From a virus (Duplodnaviria > Caudoviricetes), in IMG/VR virus record IMGVR_UViG_2895791493_000001, positions 1 to 64,000 of that record: a stretch of DNA of 64,000 nt. One strand, 5' to 3'. This document shows positions 14,983 through 63,970 of this stretch, in pieces (position 1 is the first letter of the stretch; each line of letters opens with the position of its first letter). The position numbers and the translations under genes were made by a program. The notes beneath the pieces are model-generated. The model was not told the DNA's origin, ran no database searches, and was given only the letters and a program-made list of their open reading frames with translations.

Positions 14983-15173
14983 GCCTTACCCCCTGGCTTA
15001 CTACACAATCAAAACCCATCTAACCGAAAAACAGCTGCCCAAGTACTCGAATTTATGCCATGCGCGTATTACAATACAGAAATTAGCATATATTTTAATT
15101 TGCGACAGCACGCTCGAATTAAGCCTTGCGCCCCGCAGACAAGAGAGAGGTCGATCGGGGTATGCTCCCCCTC

Positions 15174-33372: not shown

Positions 33373-34458
33373 GTGAAAAAGAAGGACAAGAAGAACCGCA
33401 ATCTGAAGAACAAGGACAAGCCCACCTCACCGCCCGCCGAGTTCGTGGCGCCCGCCCCGCACGTGTGGGTGGAAGTGGACATCGAATGGGACTCCCTGGA
33501 CAAGGCGGCCCGCCGGCGCCTGGTCCTGCAGGCCCTGGAGGACGGGGACATCGACGTGCTGTGGAGTGCGACGCATCACAACCTGCTGCTGTACGGACGC
33601 GGTGGCAGTCACACCAGCCAGCACACCGTGCGCGGGTACCGGACCGGCGTGGCTGCCTTCCTGGCGTTCGCGTTGCCGCTCGGATGGCAGAGGATGACGG
33701 ACCACGACACGGACCTGACGATCGGGTACCTGCGGGCGCTGGAGCGCACCGGCCTGACCCCCGGCACCATCAACGCCCGCCGGTCAGCCGCCCGCGCCCT
33801 GTACCGGGCACTCCGCTGGGCGGGCGTGCTGTTGGCGGATCCGTTTGCGGACACGCCGCGCGTGGCGGACCGCGAGGACCGCTGGGCGAAACGCGAGGCC
33901 TACTCACGGGAGGACATCGCGGCGCTGCTGGCGGTGGCCACGCCGGAGGAGCAGCGCATGATCCTGCTGGGCAGCCACGCGGCGCTGCGGATGTCGGAGA
34001 TGACCAGCCTCACGTGGGACGCCGTGGACCTCGCGAAGAAGGTCATGGTCGTGACCGGCAAGGGAAGGAAAACGGCGCGGGTGCACCTCAGCGGCCCCCT
34101 TCACGCGGCGCTGTCCGCCGTGCCGGCAGGGGAGCGGGAGGGGCACGTGCTGCCGTGGCAGGACCCGAAGACGATCCGGGTGTTGTTGCGGGCCCTGTGC
34201 AGTCTGGCCGGCGTGCAGTACGCCCGGAGGCAGGTGCACGGGCTGCGGCATGCGGCGGCGACCATGCTGCTGGCTCAGACGGGTGACATCTACGTGGTGT
34301 CCCGTCACCTGCGGCACTCGTCGATCAGCAGTACTGAGATCTATGCCAAACTCAGCAGCACCAAGCTCAGCGATGCCCTGGACGCCTGGGACGCCCCCGA
34401 GCCTCCGGAAGACGACGCGCCCGCGACGCCGGACGAAGACGACGAGGCGGCCGACTGA
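33373..34458 (+). CDS. tyrosine recombinase/integrase (XerC/D-like)
   Basis: Catalytic R (ALRMSE), K (GKG), HGLRH, LRH and Y (TEIY). Confidence 0.93.
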   Translation: MKKKDKKNRNLKNKDKPTSPPAEFVAPAPHVWVEVDIEWDSLDKAARRRLVLQALEDGDIDVLWSATHHNLLLYGRGGSHTSQHTVRGYRTGVAAFLAFALPLGWQRMTDHDTDLTIGYLRALERTGLTPGTINARRSAARALYRALRWAGVLLADPFADTPRVADREDRWAKREAYSREDIAALLAVATPEEQRMILLGSHAALRMSEMTSLTWDAVDLAKKVMVVTGKGRKTARVHLSGPLHAALSAVPAGEREGHVLPWQDPKTIRVLLRALCSLAGVQYARRQVHGLRHAAATMLLAQTGDIYVVSRHLRHSSISSTEIYAKLSSTKLSDALDAWDAPEPPEDDAPATPDEDDEAAD

Positions 34459-35061: not shown

Positions 35062-35444
35062 GCGCCGCGCTCGATGGTCACGGTCGGCGCGGCGTCCGTG
35101 GGAGCATCAGCGCCGGACTTCCGGGTGGCTTTGACCTGCACGTTCACGTCCCGCTCGTAATCACCCGTCGCCTTCAGGTACGCCAGCGCAGCAGCCACGA
35201 CCGCGTTCCCGACGCCGCGCAGATCCAGGGTGTACGCGCCGGTCGCGAAGCCCAGCGCGACGACCACCAGGACGGTCAGGATCTTGGCGACCATGCGCGT
35301 ACTGGGGCCGGTCGTCTTCAGCCAGCGTTTAGCGACGGCGGTCAGCGGGCCGACCAGGCGCGGCGCGAGGTACGCGATCACGGCCGTCACGAGTTCCGGC
35401 GGAATGCCCGCCTGCGTCAGTTGTGCGTTCAAATCCTGATCCAT
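35058..35444 (-). CDS. holin-like membrane protein
   Basis: 2-3 TM segments directly after the endolysin. Confidence 0.65.
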   Translation of the reverse strand: MDQDLNAQLTQAGIPPELVTAVIAYLAPRLVGPLTAVAKRWLKTTGPSTRMVAKILTVLVVVALGFATGAYTLDLRGVGNAVVAAALAYLKATGDYERDVNVQVKATRKSGADAPTDAAPTVTIERGA

Positions 35445-36235
35445 ACGTCACCGTCCTCTTCGGTCGCGTTGATGACGACCGTCTTCGCGTTCTTGATTTC
35501 CACGCGGGCGCCACTGATGTCCTCCCATGGCTGCCCACCCTGGCTCAGCAGCACGCGCCGCTGCCCAGGCGCGGGATCCGGGGCAGGGGCAGGGGCAGGG
35601 GCTGCCGGGGCGGGCGTGTCCGGCAGGGCCGCCAGGGCCCGGCGGTAGTAGACGCGGACCTCCTTGATGCCCAACATGGCCGGGCCGTTCACCATGCGCC
35701 GCGTCTCGTTGATGTCCCCTGCGTCCGCCGGGCCGTTGCATCCACGTTTCACCCAGTAGTTCGCCGCAGTTCGGGCGCTCACCAGGGCGTCGTTGATGCG
35801 CTCCGGCTGGCGCGAGAGATCCACTCCGGCCGGACTGTACGACTCGAACAGCGCCCGGCCCGTCAGTTGGATGTACCCGGCGCCCCTGAATGCCCAGCCG
35901 TCGCCGCTGGCCTCGTTGCCGTTGCCCAGGCGGTTCGCGTACACGCGGTTCGCGCAGGCCACCTCGTTCCGGACGTACGGCCGCGCAGCTGCCGCGCTGC
36001 CCCGGAAGGCCGTGCGAAAAATCGCGGCCAGTCGGGCCGGATCTGTGTAATACACGCTCTCCCGGACGTTCCGGAAGCCGCACTCGTGCGCGATATTGGC
36101 CAGCCACGCTGCGAGGCGCAGGCGGGTCGTGATGCCGTACTCCTGCGCCGCGGCGCTCAGGACGCGGGCGGCCAGTTCCGCATCAGCGGGCGCTGTCCCG
36201 GGCCGGATGGTTTGGAGCTGTCTTGCAGTGATCAT
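35429..36235 (-). CDS. GH19 chitinase-like endolysin
   Basis: LANIAHECG, YANRLGNG, GDGWAFRGAGYIQLTGR, VNG. Confidence 0.9.
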   Translation of the reverse strand: MITARQLQTIRPGTAPADAELAARVLSAAAQEYGITTRLRLAAWLANIAHECGFRNVRESVYYTDPARLAAIFRTAFRGSAAAARPYVRNEVACANRVYANRLGNGNEASGDGWAFRGAGYIQLTGRALFESYSPAGVDLSRQPERINDALVSARTAANYWVKRGCNGPADAGDINETRRMVNGPAMLGIKEVRVYYRRALAALPDTPAPAAPAPAPAPDPAPGQRRVLLSQGGQPWEDISGARVEIKNAKTVVINATEEDGDVWIRI

Positions 36236-36585
36236 TTCAACCTCCCGGCGGGCACCCAGGCCCGCCCGTTCCAGTACTCGACGGACCAGCTGCGGCCCAC
36301 CCATTCGTTGCGGACGCCGCCGCTCGGGATCTCCCACGCGCCTCGCAGCGGGTAGATCGGCTGGTACGGCCCCTCGGCGTTCAGGACGCTGCGTTTGCGC
36401 GCGCGGACCACGCCCCGGGCCGGGCAGTCCACGGCGGGGCGGATGGCGAGCCGTTCGACGATGCCGAGGGTCGCGGTGCGCTCGACGGTCGCCGCGCAGT
36501 ACGTCGCTGGCGTCGGGAGCCGCTGGGCGATCAGGCCGCCGCTGACGGCGAGGGCCACTCCGGCCAGGACGGTCCGGCCGATCAC
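36232..36585 (-). CDS. exported/membrane-anchored protein in the lysis cassette
   Basis: N-terminal hydrophobic segment; coupled at both ends. Confidence 0.6.
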   Translation of the reverse strand: MIGRTVLAGVALAVSGGLIAQRLPTPATYCAATVERTATLGIVERLAIRPAVDCPARGVVRARKRSVLNAEGPYQPIYPLRGAWEIPSGGVRNEWVGRSWSVEYWNGRAWVPAGRLK

Positions 36586-37961: not shown

Positions 37962-38468
37962 TCAGAGGCTGAAGGGGATGTCGTTCGGGTGGGGCGGGGC
38001 AGCGCATCTCGAAGGAGTCGGGTCTTTCCAGCCCAGGGCGCGCAGGCTCTCCCCGCAGGCCCGCAGGTACGCCTGGGCGTACCCTTCAGGCCAGCGTTCG
38101 AGCAACTGGTGCGTGTAAGCGTCATCACTTCGAGGATCCGCGAACACCCGGAGGTACCGGGCCTGCAGGCAGTGCCCGGCCTCGTGCGCTGCCATCCGCG
38201 CCAGTTCCGACCGGACCGCAGTTGGATCGATGTCCACCACGCAGCTCGTGCCGCCCGGCAGCGCATGCGCGTGCCCACTGGGAGCTCGGTAGCGTCCGTC
38301 TGCGTCATACACCGGCCCGCCAAGGGCGCCCGGTTCCGTCCAGCGCCAGGTGATGGCGACCCCGTGCACTTCGGTGGTCCACTGGGCGTTGTCGCGGGGC
38401 GGGGCGGTCACGCTGCAACCAGCGAGGCCCAGGGCGAGTGCGGCGGCGGACAGGATGCGCTTGATCAT
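37962..38468 (-). CDS. lipoprotein with HEXXH zinc-metallopeptidase motif
   Basis: LAG|C lipobox; HEAGH and a downstream E. Confidence 0.75.
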   Translation of the reverse strand: MIKRILSAAALALGLAGCSVTAPPRDNAQWTTEVHGVAITWRWTEPGALGGPVYDADGRYRAPSGHAHALPGGTSCVVDIDPTAVRSELARMAAHEAGHCLQARYLRVFADPRSDDAYTHQLLERWPEGYAQAYLRACGESLRALGWKDPTPSRCAAPPHPNDIPFSL

Positions 38469-38688
38469 GGGTGGACCTCCAGAGGAAAGGCCCGCCGCAG
38501 GGCCTGCGGGCGGGACGGGAAGGCGACCCCAGCGTGAACTGTGGGCCGGACGGCTTGTCTTGATTCCACCATTTCGGTTGAATCTTTGTCAAGGCGTGCA
38601 CGGGAGACACCCGGACGTCCAGGCTCCCGCGCCGCCATGACGTCCACCACTTCGGGAGAACACCAACTGGAGGGCTACCTTGAGAGGA

Positions 38689-38889
38689 ATGACCGACGAG
38701 ATTCGAGCCGAGATCAAGCGCCTGATGAAGGAGAAAGGCCTCTCCCAGCGCGCCCTTGCCGAGAAACTCGGCGTGAACGAGAAGAGCCTCAGCCGCACCC
38801 TGCTCGACCGGGGGAAGCCCGCCGGCATCTGGCCGGACATCCTCGACGAGCTGGGTGTCGAACTGACCCTGAAACGCAAGGGCAGTTGA
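38689..38889 (+). CDS. Xre/Cro-like HTH regulator
   Basis: KEKGLSQRALAEKLGVNEKSLSR. Confidence 0.85.
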   Translation: MTDEIRAEIKRLMKEKGLSQRALAEKLGVNEKSLSRTLLDRGKPAGIWPDILDELGVELTLKRKGS

Positions 38890-38897
38890 CGACCAGA

Positions 38898-38920
38898 GGG
38901 AGCCGCACGGCTCCCCCTTT
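38898..38920 (+). terminator. intrinsic terminator
   Basis: GGGAGCCG-CA-CGGCTCCC then CCTTT. Confidence 0.6.
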
Positions 38921-38964: not shown

Positions 38965-39876
38965 TCAGTAGTTCAGCCGTTTCAGGGCTCCCACCACAGT
39001 CTGTGCGGCCAGGAGCTGCCCGGCATCGTTCAGGTGGATGCCGTCGAACCGCAGTGCCTCCGGCACCGTATCGTCCGCTGCGGTTCCCACCAGCGCGGCG
39101 CGGACATCCACGAACCGCTCCCCGAATGCTGAGGCCAGAGCGACGTTCGTCCGCTGGATCGCCGCGTGCGCATTCGTACCACGCACCTCGCCGCGTCCGT
39201 TCAGCACGCTCAGCACGATGTACCTCGGCGTTTTCAGCGTGGCGACGATGGCCCGCACATCCTGCACGACCGTGTCCGTCTGCGCGTAATTGTTCCGGCC
39301 CGCCCAGATGATCGTCGTGTGCGTAGGACGCTCCCCCAGCGGTACGGCCAGCGGGTACACGCCTGGGTTGATTGCCGCGCCGGCGGCGGCCCGCTGGAAC
39401 ACGTACGGCTGCGCAGCGTTCAGGCTGCCGTCCGGGTTGTGGTTGCTGTGCACGAGCGTCCCAGTCACCCCGCCCACCGTGACCGTCAGGCGGCGGTCGT
39501 TGCCCGCCCCGTCGAGCAGGCGGACGGACGGGATAACCTCCACGCTGCCGCTCTGCGGGAGGCCGCCAGGGGCCGCGACCGTGACGGGCAGCGCGCCCAC
39601 GCGGGCCGCAATGGCGGTGCTGGTCGTGCCGCCCTGAGCGTCCACCACGACCGTCCGTCCGGTGAGCGTCCGCACGTGCGTGTAGATCCGGGTGGCCTCG
39701 CTGGTTGCGCCCGCGCCGATGGTCAGGCTGTCCCCGATCATCCAGATCGGGCTGGGCGCGACGACGGGCACAGGGGCAGGAGTGGGTACGGGGGCGGAAA
39801 CAGGTGCAGGCGCAGGGGTGACGCTGCCCGCGCAGGAGGCGAGCAGCAGGGTCAGGACGGGGAGAAGGCGGGCCAT
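38965..39876 (-). CDS. SGNH/GDSL hydrolase lipoprotein
   Basis: LLAS|C lipobox, Pro-rich linker, GDSL, GRNN, DGIH. Confidence 0.88.
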   Translation of the reverse strand: MARLLPVLTLLLASCAGSVTPAPAPVSAPVPTPAPVPVVAPSPIWMIGDSLTIGAGATSEATRIYTHVRTLTGRTVVVDAQGGTTSTAIAARVGALPVTVAAPGGLPQSGSVEVIPSVRLLDGAGNDRRLTVTVGGVTGTLVHSNHNPDGSLNAAQPYVFQRAAAGAAINPGVYPLAVPLGERPTHTTIIWAGRNNYAQTDTVVQDVRAIVATLKTPRYIVLSVLNGRGEVRGTNAHAAIQRTNVALASAFGERFVDVRAALVGTAADDTVPEALRFDGIHLNDAGQLLAAQTVVGALKRLNY

Positions 39877-39941
39877 ACAGGCACCGTAGGAGGGTTCTGG
39901 CGGCCGCGTTGCCTCACATGACGCAGCTGGACCTTCATTAA

Positions 39942-40787
39942 CTACAGCCCGAACGCGGCGCGGTTGTTCGCCCAGTCGCTCGCCACAACAGTGGCAGGGG
40001 TGCGACCGCTCAGGATCAGGTCCTCCTGGAGGCTGCGGTAGTACCGGAGGTTCGTGGCGAACCCCGTGCCGTTCGCACCACCCGTGAACGCCCCAATGGC
40101 GTTGTTCCGGGTGCTGTTGAATAGCGCCGTCGTGCCCGTGATGGTCTGGGTCTTGATGCTCACGCCGTTGCGGTACAGGGTGACCACGGTGTCCGCTCCG
40201 CTGACCGCCGTGCTCATGGCGAGTTGCACGGGCATCCCCAGCACGAACGCAGTCGGGTCCACGACCTCCGTGATAGCCGTATCCGCACTGTTCCAGAGTT
40301 TCCAGCTGAACACCTGCGTCGTCTTGTTCGCCACGGCCAGCAGGAACTGACTGTTGCTGCCCGTGTTGCTGCTGCCCGCCCGCGCCCAGATGGCCGCGCC
40401 GCTGTTCGTCGGGAGACTCACCACGGTCAGCCAGATGATCTTCAGGTTCGGCCCTGTGAGCGCCGCCGGTTGCCCCTGATCGATGTACCCGACCGGGTTC
40501 GCCACCGTCTGTCCAGGCAGCACCAGGCCGCGCACGGGTGTGGTCGTTTCGGTCATGGTGGTCGGCGTGATGATCGTCGCCGTGGGCGCAGCGGTCTGAC
40601 TGGCCCGCACGAGGTTATTCAGGGTGTTTTTGCTGGCACTCGGTGCGCCGGGCGTCCAGCACGCGGCGTTGCGGACGTCGTAGAGACTGACGACGCCCGG
40701 CACGATCAGGGCGTCACGTTCAGCGAACGGCAGGCTGGGATTGTTGATGGTCAGACCGTCAATCGTGATGACACTGCTCTGGGGCAT
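39942..40787 (-). CDS. tail fibre/receptor-binding accessory protein (LamG-like beta-rich)
   Basis: Position after the tail spike; T/S/N/G-rich beta pattern. Confidence 0.55.
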   Translation of the reverse strand: MPQSSVITIDGLTINNPSLPFAERDALIVPGVVSLYDVRNAACWTPGAPSASKNTLNNLVRASQTAAPTATIITPTTMTETTTPVRGLVLPGQTVANPVGYIDQGQPAALTGPNLKIIWLTVVSLPTNSGAAIWARAGSSNTGSNSQFLLAVANKTTQVFSWKLWNSADTAITEVVDPTAFVLGMPVQLAMSTAVSGADTVVTLYRNGVSIKTQTITGTTALFNSTRNNAIGAFTGGANGTGFATNLRYYRSLQEDLILSGRTPATVVASDWANNRAAFGL

Positions 40788-40790
40788 GGG

Positions 40791-42638
40791 CTATACACCG
40801 TCCTGTGTGAATCGGGTTTTGATGACCTGCGCCTCGGCCTGCCGTCCAGCGGCGTTCGGGTGCAGCTGGTCACCGCGCAGACTGGCGGGGATCAGGTCGT
40901 CCGTGGTGTTGGCGGCCAGGGCGCTGCGCCAGTCGATCAGGCGGTAGCGGCTGCCCAGGTAGTCGTTCAGGGCGAGGATGTTGACGTACATGGTGTTCGG
41001 GGCGTCGGTCTTGTGCTCCTGGGCGTAATCGCCGTTCGGAATACTCAGGAGGTAGACCCGGCCCGCCACGCCCCGGAGTTGCAGCGTCACGGCGTCCACG
41101 TCGGCCCGGACCGTCGTCGGGTCGGTGTAGTTGTTCCGGCCCATGCTGATGAGCACGAGTTTGTCCCGGTAGGGGGTCAGGTCCGGCACCCACAGGTCAC
41201 CATTGCTGTTCATGGTCGTGGCGCCGCCTGCCGCTACGCTGCGCGTGAACGTGTAGGCGACGGTGTAGATGCCCGCGCTGGGACTCGTGGTGGTGGCGCT
41301 CAGCGTGCCGTACACCCCGCCCAGCCACCCGGCGCGGCTGACCGGCGTGCCCAGGCCCGCGCGGGAGATCAACAGCGACGGCCCGCGCAGCAGGGTGATG
41401 GGCGCAGCGGTGACCGTGGCGGGCAGTGAGCCTCCATTCACGGTGAACCAGACGTTCGCCGCGCCCAGCCGCGCTGCGATCTCTGTACTGGTCTGCCCGC
41501 CGATGCCGTACCCGGCGCAGGTGCGGCCTGTGGCGGTGGCGATCTCTGCGGCCAGCGAGGACGTGCCGAGGCTGTCGCCGTCTACCACCACGTCCGCCAG
41601 GGGTACGTTCCGGACGCCGTTCACTCGCGCCCGCCCATCGCTGTCGAGCGTGTACCCACCGGGCAACAGCGTGTTCCCGACGTTTGGCGCAACCACTCCC
41701 CCTGGGGCGATCAGTGCGCCGTCCGTGCTGAGGGCCAGCAGCACCCGGCCTGTCTGATCCTGCACGAGAGGCGCGGCAATCTGAGCGCCATTCAGGTACA
41801 GCACATCCGGAGTGGCTGGGACGCGCAGGCCCGTCGTGCTGAGCGTGGTGATCGTCGCAGCGGCGAGGCTCAGCGCCTGCGAAAGCGTGAGGGTGATCCC
41901 GGCGAGATCATTGGCGTGCATCCCACCGGCCGCATCCCACCACACGAGAGGCCGCCCGGCGCTGTCGAGCCACGCCGCGATGACCTCAACGCCGCCGATG
42001 AACACGCCGGACGGGTACGTCACCCCACGAAACGGAGCGAGCCGCGCTTCCGTGGCAGCCGCCGTCGTGTCGTTCACATCCTGCCGGGCGTCATTCGCCT
42101 CCTGCTGCTGCGCGGTATCAGCGATGATATCGGCCACCGCCTGGCGCTCCGCCGACAGATCCAGAATGGCGTCGTTCACCCGTCCAGCGGCGGTGTTCGC
42201 CGCGGCCGCTGCCTGCTCTGCGTCGGCGGTCAGGGCCTGCAGACTGGCGGTCGTGGTGTACGCCTCCGGATCCTGATCGCGGGTCAGATCGAGCGTCCCA
42301 TCTTCGCCAGCAGCGGGCCGGAAGCGCAGCTGCTCGCTCTGGCGGCGCCCTGCCTCGTCCGTCCAGGTCAGGTCGATGTACAGCCAGCCCTGCGGCTTCG
42401 CGGCGGCGAGCACGTCGCCGCGCGCCAGGGGCAGTTCCAGCGGTCCGTCTGTGTTCGAGTTCTTCCAGCCGCTGCTGGCGGTGTCCCACTCGAAGGGGAT
42501 GCTGCCGATGCCCGCGCCGACGGGGCCGCCCAGGTAGGGGCCGTCGAAGGTCGCCTGTCCGCGCAGCGTGGCGAGGTTCGTGATCGTGGCCGGGACGCCC
42601 ACCACGGGAGTGAGCGTCGGGGTGCTGGGTTGGGTCAT
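40791..42638 (-). CDS. tail spike/receptor-binding protein with C-terminal SGNH esterase
   Basis: Putative N-terminal attachment region + coiled coil; GDSL, GRNN, DQLH. Confidence 0.8.
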   Translation of the reverse strand: MTQPSTPTLTPVVGVPATITNLATLRGQATFDGPYLGGPVGAGIGSIPFEWDTASSGWKNSNTDGPLELPLARGDVLAAAKPQGWLYIDLTWTDEAGRRQSEQLRFRPAAGEDGTLDLTRDQDPEAYTTTASLQALTADAEQAAAAANTAAGRVNDAILDLSAERQAVADIIADTAQQQEANDARQDVNDTTAAATEARLAPFRGVTYPSGVFIGGVEVIAAWLDSAGRPLVWWDAAGGMHANDLAGITLTLSQALSLAAATITTLSTTGLRVPATPDVLYLNGAQIAAPLVQDQTGRVLLALSTDGALIAPGGVVAPNVGNTLLPGGYTLDSDGRARVNGVRNVPLADVVVDGDSLGTSSLAAEIATATGRTCAGYGIGGQTSTEIAARLGAANVWFTVNGGSLPATVTAAPITLLRGPSLLISRAGLGTPVSRAGWLGGVYGTLSATTTSPSAGIYTVAYTFTRSVAAGGATTMNSNGDLWVPDLTPYRDKLVLISMGRNNYTDPTTVRADVDAVTLQLRGVAGRVYLLSIPNGDYAQEHKTDAPNTMYVNILALNDYLGSRYRLIDWRSALAANTTDDLIPASLRGDQLHPNAAGRQAEAQVIKTRFTQDGV

Positions 42639-42646
42639 GGATCTCC

Positions 42647-43078
42647 TCAGATGGGGTACAGGTCAGTGCTGTCGTCGTCGTCAACGAGGTGCCAGTAGGG
42701 GTCGCGCAGGGCGAGGGTGACGGTCAGGAGGCGCGTGGTGCCGCCCCGGTAGTCCTGCACGCGCGGCTCCCCGATCAGGCCCTGCGTGATCAGGTACCGC
42801 TCCGGGTGGCGCCGCCGGTCCCGGAAGCCCGTGGCGGCCCGCAGCAGACTCAGGACGCGTCCGCTCTCGCGGTCGCAGGCGCGGACCGTGACGGCGCTGA
42901 TGTACACGCGCAACGTCAACCGGGTTTCCTTCGGGCTGCCCAGGCCGTCCACCCAGCTCAGCCCGTACGGCGTGCGGTCCTGCGTCAGGTCGCTCGACCA
43001 GGTCGGCTGGTCGTAATCCACCACCGCCGGCAGCCGCTCCCCCCACCCGGCGTTGTCGGTGCGGACTTCGAACGTCAC
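42647..43078 (-). CDS. minor tail protein (Dit-like)
   Basis: Position; C-terminal DPYW. Confidence 0.55.
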   Translation of the reverse strand: MTFEVRTDNAGWGERLPAVVDYDQPTWSSDLTQDRTPYGLSWVDGLGSPKETRLTLRVYISAVTVRACDRESGRVLSLLRAATGFRDRRRHPERYLITQGLIGEPRVQDYRGGTTRLLTVTLALRDPYWHLVDDDDSTDLYPI

Positions 43079-44682
43079 ATCGGACCTCGCGTGTTCACGG
43101 CCTGCGAGACCGCCTGCTGGTCCTGGCGGTCCACCACGACCTTCAGCACCTGAGCGTCATACGATTCGTCCGGCTGGCCGATCATGTACTCCGTTCGCAT
43201 CGGCTCGCGGATCAGGTACCGGACCCCCACGACCTTCTCCGTGATGTCCGCGCGGCCGGGGCGCTGGACGGTCAGCGTGCCGGGTTGATCCTGGATGCCC
43301 GACACGCTGGCGATCCCCACGTGCTGGCTGGGCACCCTGTAGAGCTGTTCTGCGCTGGCGTCAAGCAACTCCCGGTCCAGGCGCTTGGCAATCAGCTCCG
43401 TCGCAGTCCCGGCAGTGTCGCCCGAGATGTTCCACAGGTCGAAACGCCGGTATCCGGCACTGACGACCAGTTCCTGCCAGTAGTTGGTGCGGATCACGGT
43501 GTCGCCGCCGCCCAGGAAGTCGTTCCCCAGGTAGGTGTCATCCAGGTCGTAGAAGTCCATCTGCAGCGTGCCGGGCGCGGAGATGACTCCCGCCCATTCC
43601 AGCCAGTCCGCGTCCATGGCGGTCGTGTACGTCAGGTGGCTGCCGTTCAGCGGTACGCCGCCAGTGGTGGCCGAGTCGCGCAGTTTAGTAATTTCGCTCT
43701 CGCTCAGCGGGGTGGCCGTCCCGCCTGGAGGCGTGAGCGTGTATGTCCCGCCGAGCACCTGCACGACACTGGGAGCGCTCCGTTGATCGATGTACCGCGT
43801 GACGCTGCTGCGGCCCAGTTCCGCGATGCGCGGGTGCTGGCTCTCGTACACGATCTCGCGGGGCGCGATGCGGGACGGGTCGCGGGGGTCGCCTGGCAGT
43901 CGCCAGATCCACCGGACGGCGGTCAGCAGCCCCTCGCTGACGACCTCCTTCAACTGGATGCGCACGCCGGTCATGGCGGCGTTCACCGTAACGACGTTTG
44001 ATGGCGGTGGCCCGATCCACACGCGGTCGTCCGCGCGGACGGTCCAGCCCCATCCGCTTTTCAGGGCCAGGAGGCCGTCGAGTGCGGCCGCGACACTCTC
44101 CCCGTTGTGCTGCCGCTGCCCCAGCACCCCCGAGTCCGGCAGGCTGGTTGCGGTGTAGGTGAGGTGTGGCAGGTCGGCGCGCGCGTCGTCGATCACTCCG
44201 CGCATCTGCTCGCTGATCTCAGTGCCGAAGTTGATGTAGTTCACGCGCGTGACCGGGATCTCTTTGAGTCGGAGGTACTTGTCGCCCACCGCTTCCCACT
44301 GCCCGTTGAGTTCGTCGGGGCGCCGGGTCAGGGTGCCGCTGAACACGGTGCGCCAGTCTCCTGGGGTCGCCGTGTCGGCCACGTCGACCCAGACGCGAGC
44401 GCGGTCGCGGTCCGGGCCGGTGAGGCCCTGCCAGGTGACGTCCTTGCATCCTCCCCACTCGTCGAGCGTGATGGTGAGTCCCGCGCTGGCCACCTGCGCC
44501 TGCGTGGCGGTGATGGTGTCGAGGGGGGCGCTGGTGGCCGGGTGGCCGAATCGGAATCTCCACATGGTGACGGCCTCCTGGGTAGGTGTGACCTGCCAGT
44601 CGTGACCGGCGGGCGGGGTGGGGTGCGGCGCGCAGGCCGCCAGGATGACGGCCAGCAGCGCCAGCAGGAATCGTTGGATCAT
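43075..44682 (-). CDS. baseplate hub/tail protein with in-frame N-terminal lipoprotein leader (second start at 44565)
   Basis: Follows the tape measure; LAA|C lipobox; two SD-equipped ATGs. Confidence 0.7.
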   Translation of the reverse strand: MIQRFLLALLAVILAACAPHPTPPAGHDWQVTPTQEAVTMWRFRFGHPATSAPLDTITATQAQVASAGLTITLDEWGGCKDVTWQGLTGPDRDRARVWVDVADTATPGDWRTVFSGTLTRRPDELNGQWEAVGDKYLRLKEIPVTRVNYINFGTEISEQMRGVIDDARADLPHLTYTATSLPDSGVLGQRQHNGESVAAALDGLLALKSGWGWTVRADDRVWIGPPPSNVVTVNAAMTGVRIQLKEVVSEGLLTAVRWIWRLPGDPRDPSRIAPREIVYESQHPRIAELGRSSVTRYIDQRSAPSVVQVLGGTYTLTPPGGTATPLSESEITKLRDSATTGGVPLNGSHLTYTTAMDADWLEWAGVISAPGTLQMDFYDLDDTYLGNDFLGGGDTVIRTNYWQELVVSAGYRRFDLWNISGDTAGTATELIAKRLDRELLDASAEQLYRVPSQHVGIASVSGIQDQPGTLTVQRPGRADITEKVVGVRYLIREPMRTEYMIGQPDESYDAQVLKVVVDRQDQQAVSQAVNTRGPM

Positions 44683-47600
44683 CGGAAGGCTCCTCGGTAG
44701 TTGCCGCTGCTGTCGATCAGGGGGATGCCGTCGCGCATCAGGCGTTCGAGCGCGTCGATGTGTCGGGTCAGGACCTCGCCGTGCCTGGTCAGGATCACCT
44801 CGTGCCGCATGTACATGGCGTCGATGCGGGTGACGGTGGCGTCGAACAGGTCGATCTTGCTGCTGTTCGCCACGATGAACGTCGCGCCGGTGACGGGGCT
44901 GCTGGCGGCATTGGCGGCGGTGCCGCCGTCCTCCGCTCCGGCGCCGTACCCCTCGAGTCCGCTGAGGGCGTCCTGGGCGGTTCCGGTCACGGCCTTGATT
45001 TCGGCGCGCAGGTCCGCCATCTCGCTGTCGCCGGATTCCCCTCGAGCCCGCGCTTCCGCGTAGGCCTTGCTGAGGGCCGCGACCTTGCTCTGCGCCAGGA
45101 TGCCCTGGATCACGAGGCGGGCCGCGAACTGGTTCAGGCCCCGCTCGATCTTCTCGCTGACCTTGCTGAAGTCCCCCATGTCGAACCCTTCCAGGAGGCT
45201 GGATTCGAAGGTGTTCCCCAGCTCGCTGCCAAGCTGATCGAAGATCGTGGCGGCCTTGATCTTGAATTTCGCGGTCGCTTCGTCCAGCATCTTCGGCCCG
45301 CCGCCCGTGATCCCCCACCACGCCCGCTGGTACCACTTGCTGTTCGCCATCTGGTCCCGCGCGTTCGCGTCCGCCTGCAGGTCCTTGTAGTACGGGTTCT
45401 CCAGCCACCCGTTGTACTTGGCCTGCCCGGCCGCCTCGCGTTGCAGCTTGGCGACTTCGGCGAGGTCCTTCTTCCAGGCCTTCATGTCGGGGCTGAGATT
45501 CTCGAACGCGTCCCCGATGTTCATCAGCCATTCGACTGTGGTCATGGCCATCCCGACGAAGTCGCCGGCGAGGAACTGCCCGAACGCCTCGACGCCCAGC
45601 TGCGCGTTCTTCACGAGGTACCCGATGACGTTGCCGTCGTCCCCCTCGGTGAACTTCCCAAGGATGGCGCCGGCCTTGTTGATGTAGCCGTTCAGGGACT
45701 GGAGTTCCTGCTGCTGCAACTGCTCGCGACTGGCGACCCCGTCGGCGGCGGCCTGGGTGCGGGCGTTCTCCAGGCGTTGCTGCGCGGCCCTGTACGCGGG
45801 AGTGCCTTCGACGAGACCTTCGATCTCACGTTCGAAGGTCCGCTGCGCCCCTTCCACCGTGAGGCGTTCGCGTTCGTTGATGTACTGGCGTTCGCTGATC
45901 AGGCGCTGGGCGCGCCGCTGCTCCAGCCCCTGGGCCGCACCGTCGGCCACGGCGTCCTCCAGGTCACGGGTGCCCTTCACGGTGTCATCCACGAGGGAGA
46001 GCAGTCGTTTGGCCGTCTCGTCTCCCGCGTCGGCCAGCACCTGCAGCTCGGCGCGGACTGCTGCCAGACCAGCGCGGAACCCGTCCATGCCCATCTCTCC
46101 GGCCGCGAACCCGTCCATCAGGGCGGTGAGGGTCTCCACGGCCGGCGTGCGCGCTTCGTCCATCGCGGCGATTTCCTGCCCCGCCTGATGGAATTCACGC
46201 CACCCGGCCGTGATGGCCTGGATCTGGTCCGGTTCGAGTCCGCTGGCGGTCAGCAGGGCGTTCAGTTCGTCCCACGGGAGGGTCAGGACGTTCTGAATGG
46301 CGTTCTCCAGGTCGAAGTAACTTTCGGCGGCGTCCTCGGCGGGCACGCCGATGCCGCGGACTTCCGCGTCGGTGGGGAACGCCTCGGTGGTGGTGGCGTT
46401 CCCGTCGGCGTCGATGCCCTGGCGTTGGCTCATCGCGCCGCTGGCCAGCAGCCCGTCCGTGATGGCGTTCGCCTGGTCGTTCAGGTACTCGCGCATCAAC
46501 TTCACTAGCGGCGTCTCGCCGGTTCCGCTGGGGTCAAGTTCGTCGAGGATGGCCTGCACTTCCGCGAGGTTCAGGGCGTCCATGCGGTCCCGCAGGGACT
46601 GCGCCTCGGCGTCCGTGAGGTTCCCGGTGGCCGGGTCGTCCGGATCCAGGGACGCCACGTCCGGCACGCCCCGCCCCTGCAGGTTGTCCGGCAGTTGCGG
46701 GCCGGTGTCGATGCTGTCGTAGATGGCGTCCCACGCCGCCTGGAGGCGTTCGGCCTCGTCGGCCGCTAGGCCGGACTGCTGGATCAGGTCGGCGAGTTCG
46801 GAGCGGCTGAACTGCCCGACCACGTCGATCGCGGCGCCCAGGTCGTAGTAGCTGTCGGCGGCGTCCTCTGCGGCGACGCCGATGCCGCGCACCTCCTCCT
46901 CGGTCTTGTACAGCAGCTCCCCGGTGTTGGGGTCGACGATCGCGCCCCCGTTGGTGAGCATCCCCATCCGGAACGTCGCCTCTTCGGCCGCGCCGACCAG
47001 CCCCCAGACGCTCTTACGGGCGCCCGTGATGTACTGGTCGGTGTCCAGCCCGGCGACTTTCGCGGCGCGGCCCAGCGCGTTGAATTCCTTCACGGCCTTC
47101 TGGCGAGCCTCGGCGTCGAACGTGCCCGCCTCGGCCTGCTGACGGATGCTGTCCGCCAGCTGCGAGTACTGGCCGCGCAGGTCCCGCACGGCCTGCGCCT
47201 CCTTCTCGCGGGCCTGGGTGGTGGTCTGGGTGCGGGCGCCGCCCGCTTCGAGGACAGCCTGATCGTAGGCGCGGTTCGCGGCGGCTTCCCGTCCGGGCCG
47301 CAGCTGGGCTTCCCCGTTGCGGGCGTCGGCCAGGGCCTTGTCGCGCGTGGCGGCCGCCACCCGGATCCGGGCGGCTTCCTCGTCGCGCGCCTGCCGCTCG
47401 ATCAGGGCCAGGCGCTGGGCGCTCGTGCCCTTGAACACCGCGAGTTCCTGCTGGTTCAGTTCGCGGGTGCGGGCGAGCGCGTCGGCGGCCTGCTGAATGC
47501 TCATCTGCCGGAGTTCGTTGGCGATCCGGGCGCGCAGCGCGGCCTGTTCCTCCGCTCGGCGCTTGGCCTCCGCCGCAGCTCGCTCGGCGTCGCGATCAGC

Positions 47601-50600
47601 CTGTTCGGCGTCACGTTCGGCCTCTTGGGCTGCCTGCTTGCGGCTCTGGTACGCGGCGCCTTCCACCTGCAGCACGCCCGCCTTGGCCTTGCTCTCGCCC
47701 TGCCAGGCCTTCACGGCGTTGTCGGCCGCCAGGATGCGGGCCGCGTTGCCGCTGGCCTGCGCGGCCTCCTGGTCCTTGAGGAGTCGCAGGGCCTGCGCGC
47801 CGTGCCGGTTCAGGTCGGCCTGCGTGACGATGTAGTCCTCGGAGGTTTTTTTTAGGGTGCTCTGCGCGGCGTTGACGGCCGTGAGGGCACGGGCGTTGGT
47901 GTCGGACTTCTCGCCCCAGTCCTTGGCTTTCTCCTTCGCGCTGTCGAGGGCCTTGATCAGGGCGACGTTCTTGGGGTCGGCGTTGAGGGCCTTCTGGGCC
48001 TTGTCGATGGCGGCATTCAGGGCCTGGGCCTGGGCGATCTGAGCGGCAGTCAGGCCAGCGTACGCGGCAGCGGGCGGCGGGACCCCGGCCGGGGCTTTCT
48101 CGGTACCCAGCACCTGCGGGACGCTGACGAACCCGGCGACGGTGCCGAGGCTGCTCATCTTCTCGGTGCTGACGACGCCGCGACCGTTCTGCACGCCCCA
48201 CTGGTTGTTGCCGCGCACCATGTCCACGCCGTTCTGTTTCCCGACGTAGATCCCGATGTGGTTGTCGTCGTAGATGACGACGTCGCCGGGTTTGAGTTTG
48301 CTCATGTCGCGGTTCAGGACGCCTGACGCGATGGCCTTGTTCTTGACGACGTCGGCGGACGCGCCGCCGAACAGCTTCTCGATTTCCTTGCTGGCGGCCG
48401 GGTCGGCCTTCTGCAAGGTGAGCTTCACCCAGCGGGCGCACCAGCCGGCCACGGTGTCCGCGACGTTGTTGCCGGTCTTACCGAGGAGGGCCTGTCCGAC
48501 AATGTCGCTCCGCAAGCCCTCCAGGGTGCCGGTGGCGATGGGCGTTCCTGTCGCAGGCGCGAGGGGTCCGGTAGGATTCTTGATGCCAGCCTGGAAGCGT
48601 GCGTCGTTCTCAAGAGCGAGCTTGAGCCACTCCGCGTAGTTCCGCTCGATGTCCTTTCGCTGGGCGAGGGCGCCGCCGGGCGTGTTCGGCGTTTCGATCA
48701 GCCCGCCGCGCTGAAGGGACTGCTGCAGCGCGGACACGTTCATCTGCTGGCCTATAGCCATGCCGCCCGCGATGGGCATGCCGAGCAGGCTCAGGATGTT
48801 CCCGGTGGCGTTGTCTCCGGGGGTGAACAGGACACTGAGTTTCACGGTCCCGGTCTCTTTCATCTGCTGGAGCTTCTCGAACAGGGTTCCGAGATCCTTG
48901 AGCAGCGGGGTCATGGTGTTCGTCAGGAAGCTGGCCAGGGGGTCCGCGAAGGTCTTCACGAACTCGCCGCCGGCTTCTGCGAACGCGTTCTTCACGCGAT
49001 TCATGGCGGGCGCGACGCCCTGCTGCATGGTTTCGCTGTACTCGATCAGGTACCCGTTGCTGTCCTGGACCTGCGCGCCGTACTTCTTCCAGTCGCCGGT
49101 CAGGTTGATCACGGCGGCCGCGGCGCGGTTGTCCATCAGACTGCTGACGGTGCGCAGGGCCTCGCCGTTTCCGGAGAGGGTGCCGGTGGTCTTGTCGACC
49201 ACGATGCCCATGCCGCGCATCTTCACGCCGAGGTCGATCATGATGTCACCGGCCGGGCGGGCCTTCCCAGCGGCGTCATCAATGTCAATTCCGAGGCCTT
49301 TCAGAACACCCTGGCCCTTGAGTGTGATGTCGGCCAGGGCGGAGAGCGCGGCGCGCAGGCCGTTGGCGCCCACGTCGGCGGCGGACATGCCCTTGTTGTC
49401 GAGTTCGACCAGCATGCCGAGCAGGTCGTACATCTCGATTTTCGCCTGGTAACCGGTGCCGCCGACGATGCCCAGGCCGATGCTGAGGTCGTTGGCCGTG
49501 CCGGCGGCGAGGTTGCCGGACTTCGCGAGCATATCGCCCACGCGGGCGGCCTCGCCGATGTCCTTGCTGTACTGGCGGATGTTCTTCAACAGCAGGCCGC
49601 TGGCGTCGTTCAGGCCGATCTGTTCTGCGGCGGCAAGGCGGCTGCTGCTGGCCATCAGTGTCAGCGCGGAGTCCGCGTCGACGCCCGCTTTGATGGTGTC
49701 AGCGAGGCTGTTGACCAGGTCCCCGCGACTGAACGATTCTCCGACGAGGCCGAGCTTCTCCTGGAGGCTCTTGACGCTGTCCTCAATGGCTCCAAGGTCC
49801 TTGACGCCGTTGGCCTGGAGGATGTTGAGGCCCTGCTGGAGTTTCTTGATCTCGCCCATGCCGGTGGCGCCCAGGGCGACGAGCGCACCGCCCGCCATGA
49901 GACCGGCCGCGCCGACCCCGGCCATGGCGAGCGCAGCGGGTCCGGCGGTCGCCTGGATGGACCGGAACATGGCGACCATGGCGGCGCCCTGGGCGACGAT
50001 CATCCCGAACTGCCCGCCCAGCGCACTGAAGCTGTTCACGACGCCGCCGCTGAGGCCAGCGTGGTTGATGTTGCCGTTGATGGTGTTCGCCTCGCGCGCC
50101 AGGCGCTGGAGTTCGCGGTTGACCTGCCCGAGCTGCTGCACGGTGAGCTCGCTACTGGAGCGGATGGCCTGGAGGCGCGCGATGATCGTGGCGGACGCGG
50201 CGCTGTACGTGGCCTGCGCGGCGTTGAACGCGGCGCTGTTGCGGTCGACGCCAGCGGTGGCCTGGTCGAACGCGGCGCGCATGGCTCCGGCGTCGGTCCG
50301 GATTCGCTGCAGGGTGTCGGTGTTGATGCTGCGCAGGCTGCGGGTGATGCGGGTGATCCCGGCGTCCGCCTGCGCGAACTCGCGCGTGCCGACGCCAGCG
50401 GCGGCCGCTGCGGCCTGAAGGCGGGTCTGCACGGCGGTCAGCTCACGGGCGTAGTCGGCCGCGTTGATCTGGCCTCGCGTCCAGAGGTTGTTCAGGCGCT
50501 CCAGTTCCGCGAGGTCGGCGCGGGTGGCCGGGTTGAGCCCTCCGCTGCCGCCCGCTCCGCCACCGCCGGGCGGAGTAGGACCAGGACCGGGGCGTGGGCC

Positions 50601-51032: not shown

Positions 51033-51061
51033 GTGGAGGCCACCTCCTCGGTGGTGCATGG

Positions 51062-63740: not shown

Positions 63741-63817
63741 TGGTCCCTCTCGCAGGGTTCGAACCTGCACTGGGCCGGGTTTGAGCCGGCTGCCTCTGCC
63801 GGTTGGGCTAGGGAGGG
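63741..63817 (-). tRNA. tRNA-Leu(CAA), short variable loop
   Basis: Cloverleaf: acceptor CCCTCCC/GAGAGGG, anticodon stem GCCGG/CCGGC with loop CTCAAAC, TTCGAAC T-loop, A73, encoded CCA. Confidence 0.85.
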
Positions 63818-63876
63818 AGGCTGGGCACGGCGGGTACCGTGCCTGGATCGACTGCCTGCGCGTGGCAGGAGTCTCG

Positions 63877-63970
63877 TGGGGGGAAGGGCAGGACTTGAAC
63901 CTGCACGCCCTTGCGGGCAAGCGAGCGCCGTGAGGCTGCCAGCCAACTCTGCCAGTTCGTTCACCTTCCC
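63877..63970 (-). tRNA. tRNA-like gene with degenerate anticodon arm and long variable arm
   Basis: GGGAAGG/CCTTCCC acceptor, GCAGG-TTCAAGT-CCTGC T arm, CCA end; anticodon loop lacks U33. Confidence 0.6.

What the first reader, a model, noticed from the sequence alone, without database searches (positions are those of the whole stretch)
38965..42638. Tail-spike SGNH esterase has a separately promoted, lipoprotein-anchored paralog: candidate receptor-erasing superinfection exclusion system
Seen: the C-terminal domain of tail protein 40791-42638 and the body of 38965-39876 align block by block (GDSL; GGQTSTEIAARLGA/GGTTSTAIAARVGA; GRNNY; IDWRSAL/VDVRAAL; DDLIPASLRGDQLH/DDTVPEALRFDGIH), and both keep the Ser, Asn and DxxH residues. 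The second copy replaces the virion N-terminus with a lipobox (LLAS|C) and a Pro-rich tether, and has its own leaderless -10 (TACGGT-6nt-ATG). Known: some phage tail spikes are SGNH esterases that deacetylate surface polysaccharide receptors. Inference: the lysogen displays a copy of its own receptor-modifying enzyme on its envelope, removing the O-acetyl groups that related phages need, or stopping progeny from re-adsorbing.
Basis: partly seen in the sequence, partly recalled or inferred. Interest (0 to 1): 0.82.

Follow-up and report, generated by a model that had tools for sequence, protein, structure and literature searches.

The report
Lipid-anchored esterase beside phage tail fibre
A temperate Deinococcus-type phage carries, between its tail-fibre and lysis genes, a separately signalled gene for a membrane-anchored sugar-esterase related to its tail fibre's enzymatic tip. 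It probably alters the host's surface sugars so that phages cannot attach, but this has not been tested.

Summary
The 303-aa product of 38965-39876 and the C-terminal domain of the 615-aa tail fibre (40791-42638) are SGNH paralogs: 35% identity over 262 aa, E 1e-19, all catalytic blocks intact. The short copy starts with a textbook lipobox and a Pro/Ala tether; the public gene call starts at V36 and misses both.

It is the only late-region gene examined with a TAnnnT box 6 nt before its ATG, and it has no Shine-Dalgarno motif. An 18-nt upstream element is conserved, at the same spacing, in a sister phage. A hairpin follows the gene.

It is not shown to be a copy of the phage's own enzyme. Its nearest relatives are lipoproteins in the same slot of other phages, and the fibre heads of other fibres of this family.

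Exported SGNH genes recur at the fibre-lysis junction in unrelated phages, and earlier notes of this scan report similar pairs on other DNA. The position matches the proven JBD44 O-antigen-acetylating anti-Kronos genes.

Best reading (about 0.45): a moron-type, envelope-anchored glycan O-acetylesterase used for surface conversion or superinfection exclusion. Expression timing, lipidation, substrate and effect on adsorption are untested. I rate it a new variant of a known kind, interest about 0.6.

The parts
40791..42638 (-). Tail fibre gene (615 aa): N-terminal virion-attachment part, shaft, C-terminal SGNH head
   Evidence: phrog_11419 'tail fiber protein' 4.1e-15. It is syntenic after the tape-measure, Dit-like and 143-aa genes in L003 and in Deinococcus plasmid NZ_CP092193.1, where its N-terminus is 55.6% identical. 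Its shaft is homologous to fibre P0008.
40806..41600 (-). SGNH domain of the tail fibre (residues about 347-611), 'type A' head
   Evidence: phmmer envelope 347-611. GDS, GGQTS, GRNN and DQLH are present. It groups with P0026/P0031.
39942..40787 (-). ConA-like/Laminin_G_3 protein (281 aa) that follows the fibre gene in this phage and its relatives
   Evidence: PF13385 1.2e-04 and phrog_19357 4.7e-08. Counterparts follow the fibre in L003 (271 aa, PF13385) and L006 (292 aa, E 7e-07). The 263-aa counterpart in L035 is a weak match (E 0.008).
39905..39922 (-). 18-nt element GTCATGTGAGGCAACGCG, ending 28 nt before the ATG; candidate promoter or operator element
   Evidence: It is identical in L003 at the same 28-nt distance from the ATG of a different downstream gene, while the flanks diverge. 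It is unique in the 92.6-kb genome. It does not form a stable RNA structure.
39883..39888 (-). TACGGT, a TAnnnT -10-like box 6 nt upstream of the ATG (leaderless arrangement)
   Evidence: Only 1.2% of ATG triplets in the genome have TAnnnT 5-8 nt upstream, and none of the 27 other gene starts examined do. [quoted passage not shown]
38965..39876 (-). SGNH lipoprotein gene (303 aa)
39832..39876 (-). Lipoprotein signal peptide MARLLPVLTLLLAS and lipobox Cys15
   Evidence: Meets the PS51257-type rule. The closest homolog P0005 has the same layout, MRRIVLLLCCLLVAC followed by a Pro/Ala linker.
39751..39831 (-). Pro/Ala-rich tether (residues 16-42)
   Evidence: Sequence. Low pLDDT and no secondary structure.
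38968..39750 (-). SGNH catalytic domain with a beta-rich insert (residues 43-303), 'type B' head
   Evidence: AlphaFold2 mean pLDDT 93.6. VIA-align Z 21 to SGNH esterases. A PDB sequence profile gives tail spike proteins 9sij/9sim at E 1.9e-41. It sits in a 99%-supported clade with P0005, P0006 and P0008.
38898..38915 (.). GC-rich hairpin between the convergent SGNH gene and the HTH gene; candidate bidirectional terminator
   Evidence: a 10-bp stem on the - strand, with a better T-tract on the + strand.
38680..38889 (+). Small XRE-type HTH gene on the opposite strand, separating the SGNH gene from the lysis operon
   Evidence: PHROG transcriptional repressor/regulator families, about 7e-08.

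Best explanation
The gene at 38965-39876 is a moron-type accessory gene of a temperate Deinococcus phage-plasmid. It is transcribed from its own promoter as a leaderless mRNA. Its product is exported by Sec and lipidated at Cys15. That leaves a catalytically competent SGNH carbohydrate O-acetylesterase tethered to a membrane by a roughly 27-residue Pro/Ala linker. There it removes O-acetyl groups from an envelope glycan that SGNH-tipped tail fibres of this fibre family recognise. The cell therefore stops adsorbing such phages, which amounts to superinfection exclusion, and progeny are not lost on lysogens or debris (the 'anti-Kronos' logic). Shown: the paralogy, intact catalytic residues, the lipobox and tether, the SGNH fold, the gene's position, unusual start signals, recurrence of the layout in other phages, and integrase/ParA in the genome. 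Inferred: promoter activity and timing, lipidation and final location, substrate, direction of the reaction, and any effect on adsorption.
For: The paralogy and catalytic blocks are confirmed, as are the lipobox and tether. The fold is SGNH, and the family is the tail-spike SGNH family: PDB tail spikes 9sij/9sim at E 1.9e-41 and phrog_11419 at 1e-35. Two Klebsiella prophage tail fibres with SGNH domains were shown to be esterases, and G7C gp63.1 deacetylates O-antigen (PMC13123978). A cellular homolog in Devosia (L011) sits in an apparent polysaccharide-synthesis locus, judged from neighbouring N-terminal sequences only.

The gene has TAnnnT 6 nt before its ATG and no SD motif, whereas neighbouring late genes have SD motifs and no -10 box. 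An 18-nt element and its 28-nt spacing are conserved with L003, and a hairpin lies downstream.

Exported envelope-acting genes fill the same slot in relatives. L003 has a Sec-secreted SGNH. L004 has the lipoprotein P0005 directly before two small genes I take for holins and an amidase. L005 has Wzy_C, SGNH P0006 and an AT3 gene between fibre and lysis genes. L035 has a fibre SGNH, a secreted SGNH and an oppositely oriented lipoprotein SGNH.

The position is the same as JBD44 genes 40-41, between tail spike and endolysin. Those genes acetylate O-antigen, and deleting them cuts free phage about 10^4-fold (bioRxiv 10.1101/2024.03.05.583538). Integrase, ParA and a ParB-like protein are present. 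The host lineage is supported by a syntenic Deinococcus plasmid.
Against: There are no expression, lipidation, activity or adsorption data. No terminator separates the gene from the tail operon, so late read-through transcription is possible. The -35 region does not resemble the sigma-70 consensus. The enzyme is only 35% identical to the phage's own fibre head and groups elsewhere, so its substrate may differ from the phage's own receptor. The fold cannot separate esterases from SGNH acetyltransferases such as OatA and PatB (Z 15.7-17.8). A presumed structural gene of the same phage, the Dit-like gene, also starts with a conserved lipobox, so a lipobox alone does not prove a non-virion fate. 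The related Deinococcus plasmid and L006 lack an exported SGNH. No tyrosine integrase, resolvase or rve transposase was found in L035's 96%-complete record, so the layout is not tied to proven lysogeny.
Confidence: 0.45

Rival explanations
1. It is a late-cycle helper rather than a lysogen function. The gene is expressed with the tail and lysis genes. The anchored esterase would strip acetyl groups from peptidoglycan (Ape1-like), helping the GH19-type endolysin, or from receptors on the dying cell and its debris, so that released virions are not trapped.
For: The gene has the same orientation as the tail operon, lies 65 nt after it, and has no intervening terminator. It sits next to the lysis cassette, made up of holin-like proteins and an endolysin matching phrog_181 at 8.5e-59. 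P0005 lies directly before two small genes I take for holins and an amidase. The Foldseek top hit is the peptidoglycan O-acetylesterase Ape1. L035's record has no detected integrase.
Against: A hairpin and an opposite-strand gene separate it from the lysis operon. It lacks the SD motif that the late genes use, so translation from a polycistronic late mRNA should be poor. The Ape1 match is weak (TM 0.37), and the sequence family is that of tail-spike glycan esterases. The virion fibre already carries an esterase that could free trapped particles.
Confidence: 0.2
2. It is the extracytoplasmic transferase half of an O-acetylation system. The SGNH lipoprotein would receive acetyl groups from a host AT3 or MBOAT membrane protein and ADD them to a surface glycan, giving classical serotype conversion as with Oac, OafA or JBD44 gp40-41.
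For: Its clade-mate P0006 sits between a Wzy_C gene and an Acyl_transf_3 gene in a prophage conversion cassette. SGNH domains are the transferase module of AT3-SGNH enzymes, and soluble SGNH proteins can work with separate AT3 proteins (PMC9558356). OatA and PatB domains are good structural matches (Z 15.7-17.8). Deinococcus radiodurans encodes AT3 proteins (control row).
Against: No AT3 gene exists in the phage record. The closest characterised sequence relatives are tail-spike esterases, and the family is used on virions, where no acetyl donor is available.
Confidence: 0.12
3. It is not exported. Translation would start at V36, as in the public gene call, or later, and the protein would be a cytoplasmic or virion-associated accessory esterase, such as a second receptor-binding component mounted on the fibre or the ConA-like protein.
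For: The public annotation starts at V36 (P0001). Standalone SGNH genes next to receptor-binding protein genes are noted in Klebsiella prophages (PMC13123978). The Dit-like gene shows that lipobox-like N-termini occur on presumed structural proteins here.
Against: No SD motif or -10 box precedes V36 or M46. The upstream 35 codons form a textbook lipobox, and this layout is shared with P0005 and with many standalone family members. The protein has no virion-attachment domain.
Confidence: 0.08
4. It is a general fitness or nutritional esterase or lipase unrelated to phage receptors. Examples would be a NanS-p-like O-acetylesterase or an outer-membrane lipid esterase, or it could simply be a host-derived lipoprotein carried as cargo.
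For: Homologs occur as cellular lipoproteins or secreted proteins outside phages, for example P0007 in L008 and proteins of Burkholderiaceae and Devosia. Prophage-encoded esterases with non-receptor roles are known; Stx-phage esterases appear in the literature hits.
Against: Exported SGNH genes recur beside SGNH-tipped fibre genes in unrelated phages. The protein is also clade-related to fibre heads of the same fibre family.
Confidence: 0.1

Closest known systems
Pseudomonas phage JBD44 genes 40-41 (O-antigen acetylation; 'anti-Kronos' superinfection exclusion; bioRxiv 10.1101/2024.03.05.583538)
   Same: [quoted passage not shown] They change the acetylation state of a surface glycan that serves as the phage receptor, and they protect progeny from re-adsorbing to lysogens.
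   Different: JBD44 adds acetyl groups with two genes. Here a single lipoprotein of the esterase-type tail-spike SGNH family would most likely remove them. Nothing has been tested here.
T5 Llp and phi80/N15 Cor superinfection-exclusion lipoproteins
   Same: Phage-encoded lipoproteins, encoded next to receptor-binding protein genes, that inactivate the phage receptor (papers listed; gene positions are from my own knowledge).
   Different: Llp and Cor are small non-enzymatic binders of the protein receptor FhuA. This is a 29-kDa enzyme presumed to act on a glycan.
Tail-fibre/tailspike SGNH esterases (G7C gp63.1; Klebsiella prophage receptor-binding proteins 164_08 and 174_38; PDB 9sij/9sim)
   Same: Same SGNH subfamily: profile E 1.9e-41 to 9sij and phrog_11419 at 1e-35. 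Members have proven esterase or deacetylase activity.
   Different: Those enzymes are C-terminal heads of virion fibres. This one has a lipobox and tether instead of a virion-attachment domain, so it should act from the cell side.
Serotype-converting O-acetyltransferases (Sf6 Oac, D3, OafA/OafB; AT3 and AT3-SGNH)
   Same: Prophage morons that alter glycan acetylation and phage susceptibility. SGNH domains are the extracytoplasmic catalytic module (PMC9558356).
   Different: No AT3 partner is present in this phage. The likely direction of the reaction is the opposite.
Peptidoglycan O-acetylesterase Ape1
   Same: An exported SGNH esterase with an inserted beta domain that acts in the envelope. 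It is the top Foldseek hit.
   Different: The structural match is weak (TM 0.37), there is no sequence-level relationship beyond the superfamily, and Ape1 has a housekeeping role.

Membership tests
SGNH/GDSL hydrolase superfamily | Conserved blocks I (GDS, Ser nucleophile), II (Gly), III (GxN, Asn) and V (DxxH) | tested here: met
   S50, G83, N195 and D278/H281 are invariant or nearly so in alignments A2-A4. The fibre copy has GDS, GGQTS, GRNN and DQLH.
SGNH/GDSL hydrolase superfamily | Three-layer alpha/beta/alpha SGNH fold | tested here: met
   The AlphaFold2 model has mean pLDDT 93.6. VIA-align gives Z 19-21 and rmsd 2.2-2.8 over 164-178 residues to solved SGNH esterases. The Pfam PF13472 score (30.1 bits) is just under the 32.9-bit gathering cut-off.
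Tail-fibre SGNH esterase subfamily (phrog_11419; PDB 9sij/9sim) | Significant sequence match to the family profile | tested here: met
   phrog_11419 at 1e-35. The family profile hits the 9sij tail spike at E 1.9e-41. There are 1761 relatives, many of them C-terminal heads of long fibre-like proteins.
Tail-fibre SGNH esterase subfamily (phrog_11419; PDB 9sij/9sim) | Attachment to the virion through an N-terminal fibre/shaft part | tested here: not met
   In the 303-aa protein only a signal peptide and a 27-residue linker precede the domain. The 615-aa copy does have the shaft.
Bacterial lipoproteins | N-terminal signal peptide with a lipobox [LVI][ASTVI][GAS]C, Cys at position 15-35 and a basic n-region | tested here: met
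   MARLLPVLTLLLAS|C fits the PS51257-type rule, which has a 1.2% background in this record. No SignalP run was available.
Bacterial lipoproteins | Actual diacylglyceryl modification and signal-peptidase II cleavage | not testable with these tools
   This needs lipid labelling, globomycin treatment or mass spectrometry.
Phage morons (own promoter, own terminator, variable presence among relatives) | Independent promoter and terminator flanking the gene | tested here: inconclusive
   Present: a TAnnnT box at -6, no SD motif, a conserved 18-mer at fixed spacing, and a downstream hairpin. No transcript data are available, and the consensus promoter scan found nothing.
Phage morons (own promoter, own terminator, variable presence among relatives) | Presence or absence, or replacement, in otherwise syntenic relatives | tested here: met
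   L003 has a different SGNH in the slot. L006 and the Deinococcus plasmid have none. The flanking fibre, ConA-like and lysis genes are conserved.
Superinfection exclusion / anti-Kronos surface-modification systems | Expression from the prophage, with reduced adsorption or protected progeny | not testable with these tools
   Only the genomic position matches, namely between fibre and endolysin as for JBD44 genes 40-41. PADLOC gave no hit.
AT3-SGNH / PatAB-type O-acetyltransferase systems | A membrane acyltransferase partner (AT3 or MBOAT) encoded with, or fused to, the SGNH module | tested here: not met
   PF01757 is absent from the whole 99.7-kb record; MBOAT was not searched for. Clade-mate P0006 does have an adjacent AT3 gene. 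A host-encoded partner cannot be excluded.

The most novel reading that the evidence does not exclude
Temperate phages of unrelated lineages repeatedly take the enzymatic head of SGNH-tipped tail fibres and re-issue it as an exported, membrane-anchored enzyme from a separate promoter. Here the head is of a type carried by OTHER fibres of the same fibre family. The lysogen would then enzymatically erase the O-acetyl mark that such fibres need. This would be superinfection exclusion by receptor destruction from the cell side: the mirror image of acetylating conversion genes and the bacterial-virus counterpart of receptor-destroying enzymes of animal viruses.
Probability: 0.3. Interest if true: 0.8.

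Novelty: new variant of a known kind. Interest (0 to 1): 0.6.

Why it matters
Known phage surface-exclusion devices either mask a protein receptor (Llp, Cor, Zip) or add groups to a glycan (Oac, Gtr, JBD44 gp40-41). An exported esterase that removes the mark read by SGNH-tipped fibres would be a third logic. It would also explain why standalone SGNH genes keep turning up beside receptor-binding genes in prophages.

The case here is directly testable: one gene, one catalytic serine, and one adsorption or free-phage assay. It also links fibre-head exchange to exclusion specificity. That link matters for predicting host range and phage-phage competition from sequence.

Finally, it adds to the very sparse knowledge of Deinococcus phages and their receptors.

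Tried and rejected
1. Recent in-genome duplication. The free tree separates the two copies and closer relatives exist elsewhere. The AU test does not reject sisterhood (p 0.20), so this is unlikely but not excluded.

2. Co-divergence of fibre and lipoprotein. This is rejected for the one close relative found. L003 has an orthologous fibre but a non-homologous secreted SGNH, which gives no hit to the family HMM.

3. The 18-mer as a repeated late promoter or operator. It occurs only once in the genome.

4. The intergenic region as a terminator or RNA structure. Fold z-scores are +0.65 and +1.0.

5. Known defence or NCBI families. PADLOC and NCBIfam gave no hits.

6. Close relatives in IMG/VR through the fibre protein. 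None were found.

7. The genome-contig scan gave only relatives at about 31-40% full-length identity in Proteobacteria and other phyla, and none in Deinococcus.

8. Contexts of standalone lipoprotein members P0017, P0025 and P0022. The contigs are under 2 kb and uninformative.

9. Caballeronia plasmid context. The record is unannotated.

10. The genome search 'relatives' is not available for a virus record.

11. The fold search could not separate esterase from transferase.

12. Lifestyle of L035's phage. No integrase, resolvase or rve transposase was found, but the locus lies at a contig end, so this is inconclusive.

13. A search for a paper on PDB 9sij found nothing relevant.

Full report
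**What the record is**

The window is the first 64 kb of an IMG/VR virus record of 99,725 bases. Its last 7,117 bases repeat its first 7,117 exactly, so the unit genome is 92,608 bp. GC content is about 70%.

The record encodes a tyrosine integrase (33373-34458), a ParA ATPase (15126-15941), a ParB-like protein (52-2151) and a Cro/CI-type HTH protein. A temperate or phage-plasmid lifestyle is therefore plausible.

The N-terminal 120 residues of the tail fibre are 55.6% identical to a region of the 104-kb circular plasmid NZ_CP092193.1 of Deinococcus sp. KNUC1210. That plasmid has the same gene order: tape-measure, a 544-aa protein, a 139-aa protein, the fibre, then small exported proteins, holin-like proteins and a GH19-type endolysin. 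A Deinococcus host and a phage-plasmid lineage are the best-supported reading.

**Anatomy of the region**

On the minus strand the order is as follows:
- tape-measure gene (44679-51059);
- a Dit-like gene (43075-44682);
- a 143-aa gene (42647-43078);
- the 615-aa fibre gene (40791-42638);
- a ConA-like 281-aa gene (39942-40787);
- a 65-nt gap;
- the 303-aa SGNH gene (38965-39876);
- a GC-rich hairpin (38898-38915).

A 69-aa XRE-type HTH gene then lies on the plus strand (38680-38889). The minus strand resumes with a 168-aa lipoprotein carrying an HEAGH motif (37962-38468), three small holin-like membrane proteins, and a GH19-like endolysin (35429-36337, phrog_181 8.5e-59).

**Checking the observation**

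The two SGNH products align at 35% identity over 262 residues, E 1e-19. They are the only two copies in the record. Both keep Ser, Gly, Asn and Asp/His of blocks I, II, III and V.

The short copy begins MARLLPVLTLLLAS|C, which fits the PROSITE-type lipobox rule. Only 1.2% of all start/ORF combinations in the record fit that rule, mostly in spurious frames. The three hits with good hydrophobic cores are real genes of this same region. A Pro/Ala-rich stretch of 27 residues follows.

An AlphaFold2 model built with 77 homologs has mean pLDDT 93.6. Residues 1-40 are unstructured, and residues 43-303 form an SGNH fold with a beta-rich insert at about residues 98-177. The public gene call starts at V36 and omits the signal peptide. 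No Shine-Dalgarno motif or -10 box supports that start.

**Is it separately expressed?**

TACGGT lies 6 nt before the ATG. Only 1.2% of ATG triplets in the genome have TAnnnT 5-8 nt upstream, and none of 27 other gene starts I examined do. Most late genes instead have GGAG/GAGG/AGGA motifs, and this gene has none.

In Deinococcus deserti 60% of mRNAs are leaderless. [quoted passage not shown]

In the sister phage L003 the intergenic region after the ConA-like gene contains the same 18-nt sequence, GTCATGTGAGGCAACGCG. It is again exactly 28 nt before the ATG, and it is followed by CATTAT 6 nt before the ATG. Yet the downstream gene there is different. The element is unique in this genome and does not form a stable RNA structure.

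These features point to a promoter. However, no terminator separates the gene from the tail operon, so late read-through cannot be excluded.

**What the enzyme is related to**

A full phmmer scan of 1.8 billion representative proteins gives 1761 relatives. Many are C-terminal heads of 450-900-aa fibre-like proteins. Many others are proteins of about 300 aa with signal peptides or lipoboxes.

A profile of the family hits the solved 'tail spike protein' structures 9sij/9sim at E 1.9e-41, and the tail-fibre family phrog_11419 at 1e-35. Two Klebsiella prophage tail fibres with SGNH domains are proven esterases, and G7C gp63.1 deacetylates O-antigen (PMC13123978).

Structure search confirms the SGNH fold (Z 21) but does not separate esterases from the SGNH acetyltransferase modules OatA and PatB.

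**Not shown to be a copy of the phage's own head**

In an IQ-TREE of 56 domains the lipoprotein falls in a 99%-supported clade with three proteins:
- P0005, a 601-aa lipoprotein with Big_7 domains;
- P0006, a 308-aa membrane-anchored protein;
- P0008, a 680-aa fibre.

The phage's own fibre head groups with its orthologs P0026 and P0031. Per-region identity to its own fibre is 29-41%, against 37-52% to clade members. The fibre pair also shares insertions that the lipoprotein lacks.

P0008 and P0009 have shafts homologous to this phage's fibre, but their heads are of the lipoprotein's type. So this fibre family carries at least two head types, and the lipoprotein has the type that this phage's fibre does not. 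Forcing the two window copies together costs 18 log-likelihood units, but the AU test does not reject it (p 0.20). This conclusion is therefore likely rather than proven.

**Recurrence of the layout**

- L003 is a close relative, with an orthologous tape-measure gene, a Dit-like gene with a lipobox, the fibre P0026 and a ConA-like gene. In the same slot it has a 379-aa Sec-secreted SGNH of a different family (PF13472 8.9e-21) with an extra C-terminal domain.
- In L004, P0005 lies directly before two small genes I take for holins and an amidase.
- In L005, a prophage in an NCBI assembly, P0006 lies between a Wzy_C gene and an Acyl_transf_3 gene. These come after the fibre and before holin-sized genes and an amidase, which is a typical glycan-conversion cassette.
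- L035 comes from a 96%-complete 54.9-kb IMG/VR genome. It has a 664-aa fibre with an SGNH head, a ConA-like gene, a secreted 155-aa protein and a Sec-secreted 625-aa SGNH. On the opposite strand it has a 376-aa SGNH lipoprotein with an RR motif, an LTAC lipobox and a Ser-rich tether, next to a lysozyme gene. The three copies are 36-40% identical and share head-specific motifs.
- L006 and the Deinococcus plasmid have other small exported proteins in the slot, and no SGNH.

The slot is therefore a variable site for exported, envelope-acting genes, and SGNH enzymes have been placed there repeatedly.

**Mechanism and rivals**

A lipoprotein is exported before virion assembly, and this one has no fibre-attachment part. 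It should therefore act on the producing cell's envelope.

The same position in Pseudomonas phage JBD44, between tail spike and endolysin, holds two genes that acetylate O-antigen. Their deletion lowers free phage about 10^4-fold, because progeny re-adsorb to lysogens.

The most economical reading here is the mirror image: an anchored esterase removes acetyl groups read by SGNH-tipped fibres, giving exclusion and progeny protection. I put this at about 0.45.

The rivals are:
- a late-cycle receptor-destroying or peptidoglycan-deacetylating helper (0.2);
- a transferase working with a host AT3 or MBOAT protein (0.12), noting that the phage record has no AT3 gene;
- a non-exported or virion-associated accessory enzyme (0.08);
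- an unrelated fitness esterase or cargo gene (0.1).

One caveat applies to all of these. The Dit-like gene of this phage and of L003 also begins with a conserved lipobox, so lipobox-bearing products in the tail module need experimental localisation.

**Novelty**

Full-text searches found no described phage lipoprotein SGNH esterase used for exclusion or conversion. PADLOC and NCBIfam have no model for it.

Each component is known: SGNH fibre heads, lipoprotein exclusion factors, and acetylation-based conversion at this locus. The combination is a new variant.

Earlier notes of this scan report comparable exported-SGNH and fibre-SGNH pairs in Rhizobium, Curtobacterium-like and Bacteroidota phages. 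I did not re-test those. They are consistent with the recurrence I found independently in L003 and L035.

Noticed in passing
window 43075-44682 (- strand); L003 5843-7438: The Dit-like gene that follows the tape-measure gene starts with a textbook lipobox: MIQRFLLALLAVILAAC here and MIRTLIALLTVLVTAC in the sister phage. The lipobox is kept despite substitutions. The L005 homolog lacks it but shares the WQ(V/L)TPT motif just downstream. A lipoprotein signal on a presumed baseplate protein is unexplained.
   Followed up: partly
window 37962-38468 (- strand): A 168-aa lipoprotein (MIKRILSAAALALGLAGC) with an HEAGH zinc-protease-like motif is the first gene of the lysis cluster. It has no Pfam, PHROG, PADLOC or NCBIfam family. 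L006 has an HELGH protein in the same slot, but without significant similarity (E 0.12).
   Followed up: partly
window 38563-38592 (- strand) and 38680-38889 (+ strand): A TTGACA-18-TGGAAT promoter-like site, preceded by TGn, lies upstream of the HEAGH lipoprotein and lysis genes. A small XRE HTH gene is transcribed divergently from it. Together these suggest a separately regulated lysis operon. The -10 lacks the conserved A2, so the consensus scan did not list it.
   Followed up: no
whole record G000: The record's 'direct terminal repeat' is an exact 7,117-bp overlap (1-7117 = 92609-99725). The unit genome is therefore 92,608 bp, and genes in the first 7 kb are counted twice in the record.
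   Followed up: yes
L029 (NZ_CP092193.1, Deinococcus sp. KNUC1210 plasmid unnamed6): This 104-kb 'plasmid' carries a full siphovirus tail module (annotated tape-measure gene), holin-like genes and a GH19-like endolysin, syntenic with the window. It looks like a related phage-plasmid. Its fibre N-terminus is followed by a different 940-aa C-terminal gene.
   Followed up: partly
L005 6749-10033: This prophage cassette has Wzy_C (7.6e-21), SGNH P0006 and Acyl_transf_3 (1.3e-23) between the tail fibre and the holin/amidase genes. It is a likely three-gene glycan conversion module in which the SGNH may be the transferase partner of the AT3 protein.
   Followed up: partly
L035 2261-8544 (IMGVR_UViG_3300044684_000175): One phage carries three SGNH paralogs: a fibre head, a Sec-secreted 625-aa form that shares the fibre's extra insert, and an oppositely oriented lipoprotein with a Ser-rich tether. 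No integrase, resolvase or rve transposase was found in the 96%-complete record.
   Followed up: partly
window 63741-63970 (- strand): Two phage-borne tRNA genes lie near the end of the window: tRNA-Leu(CAA) and an unusually long tRNA-Gly(GCC) call of 94 nt.
   Followed up: no
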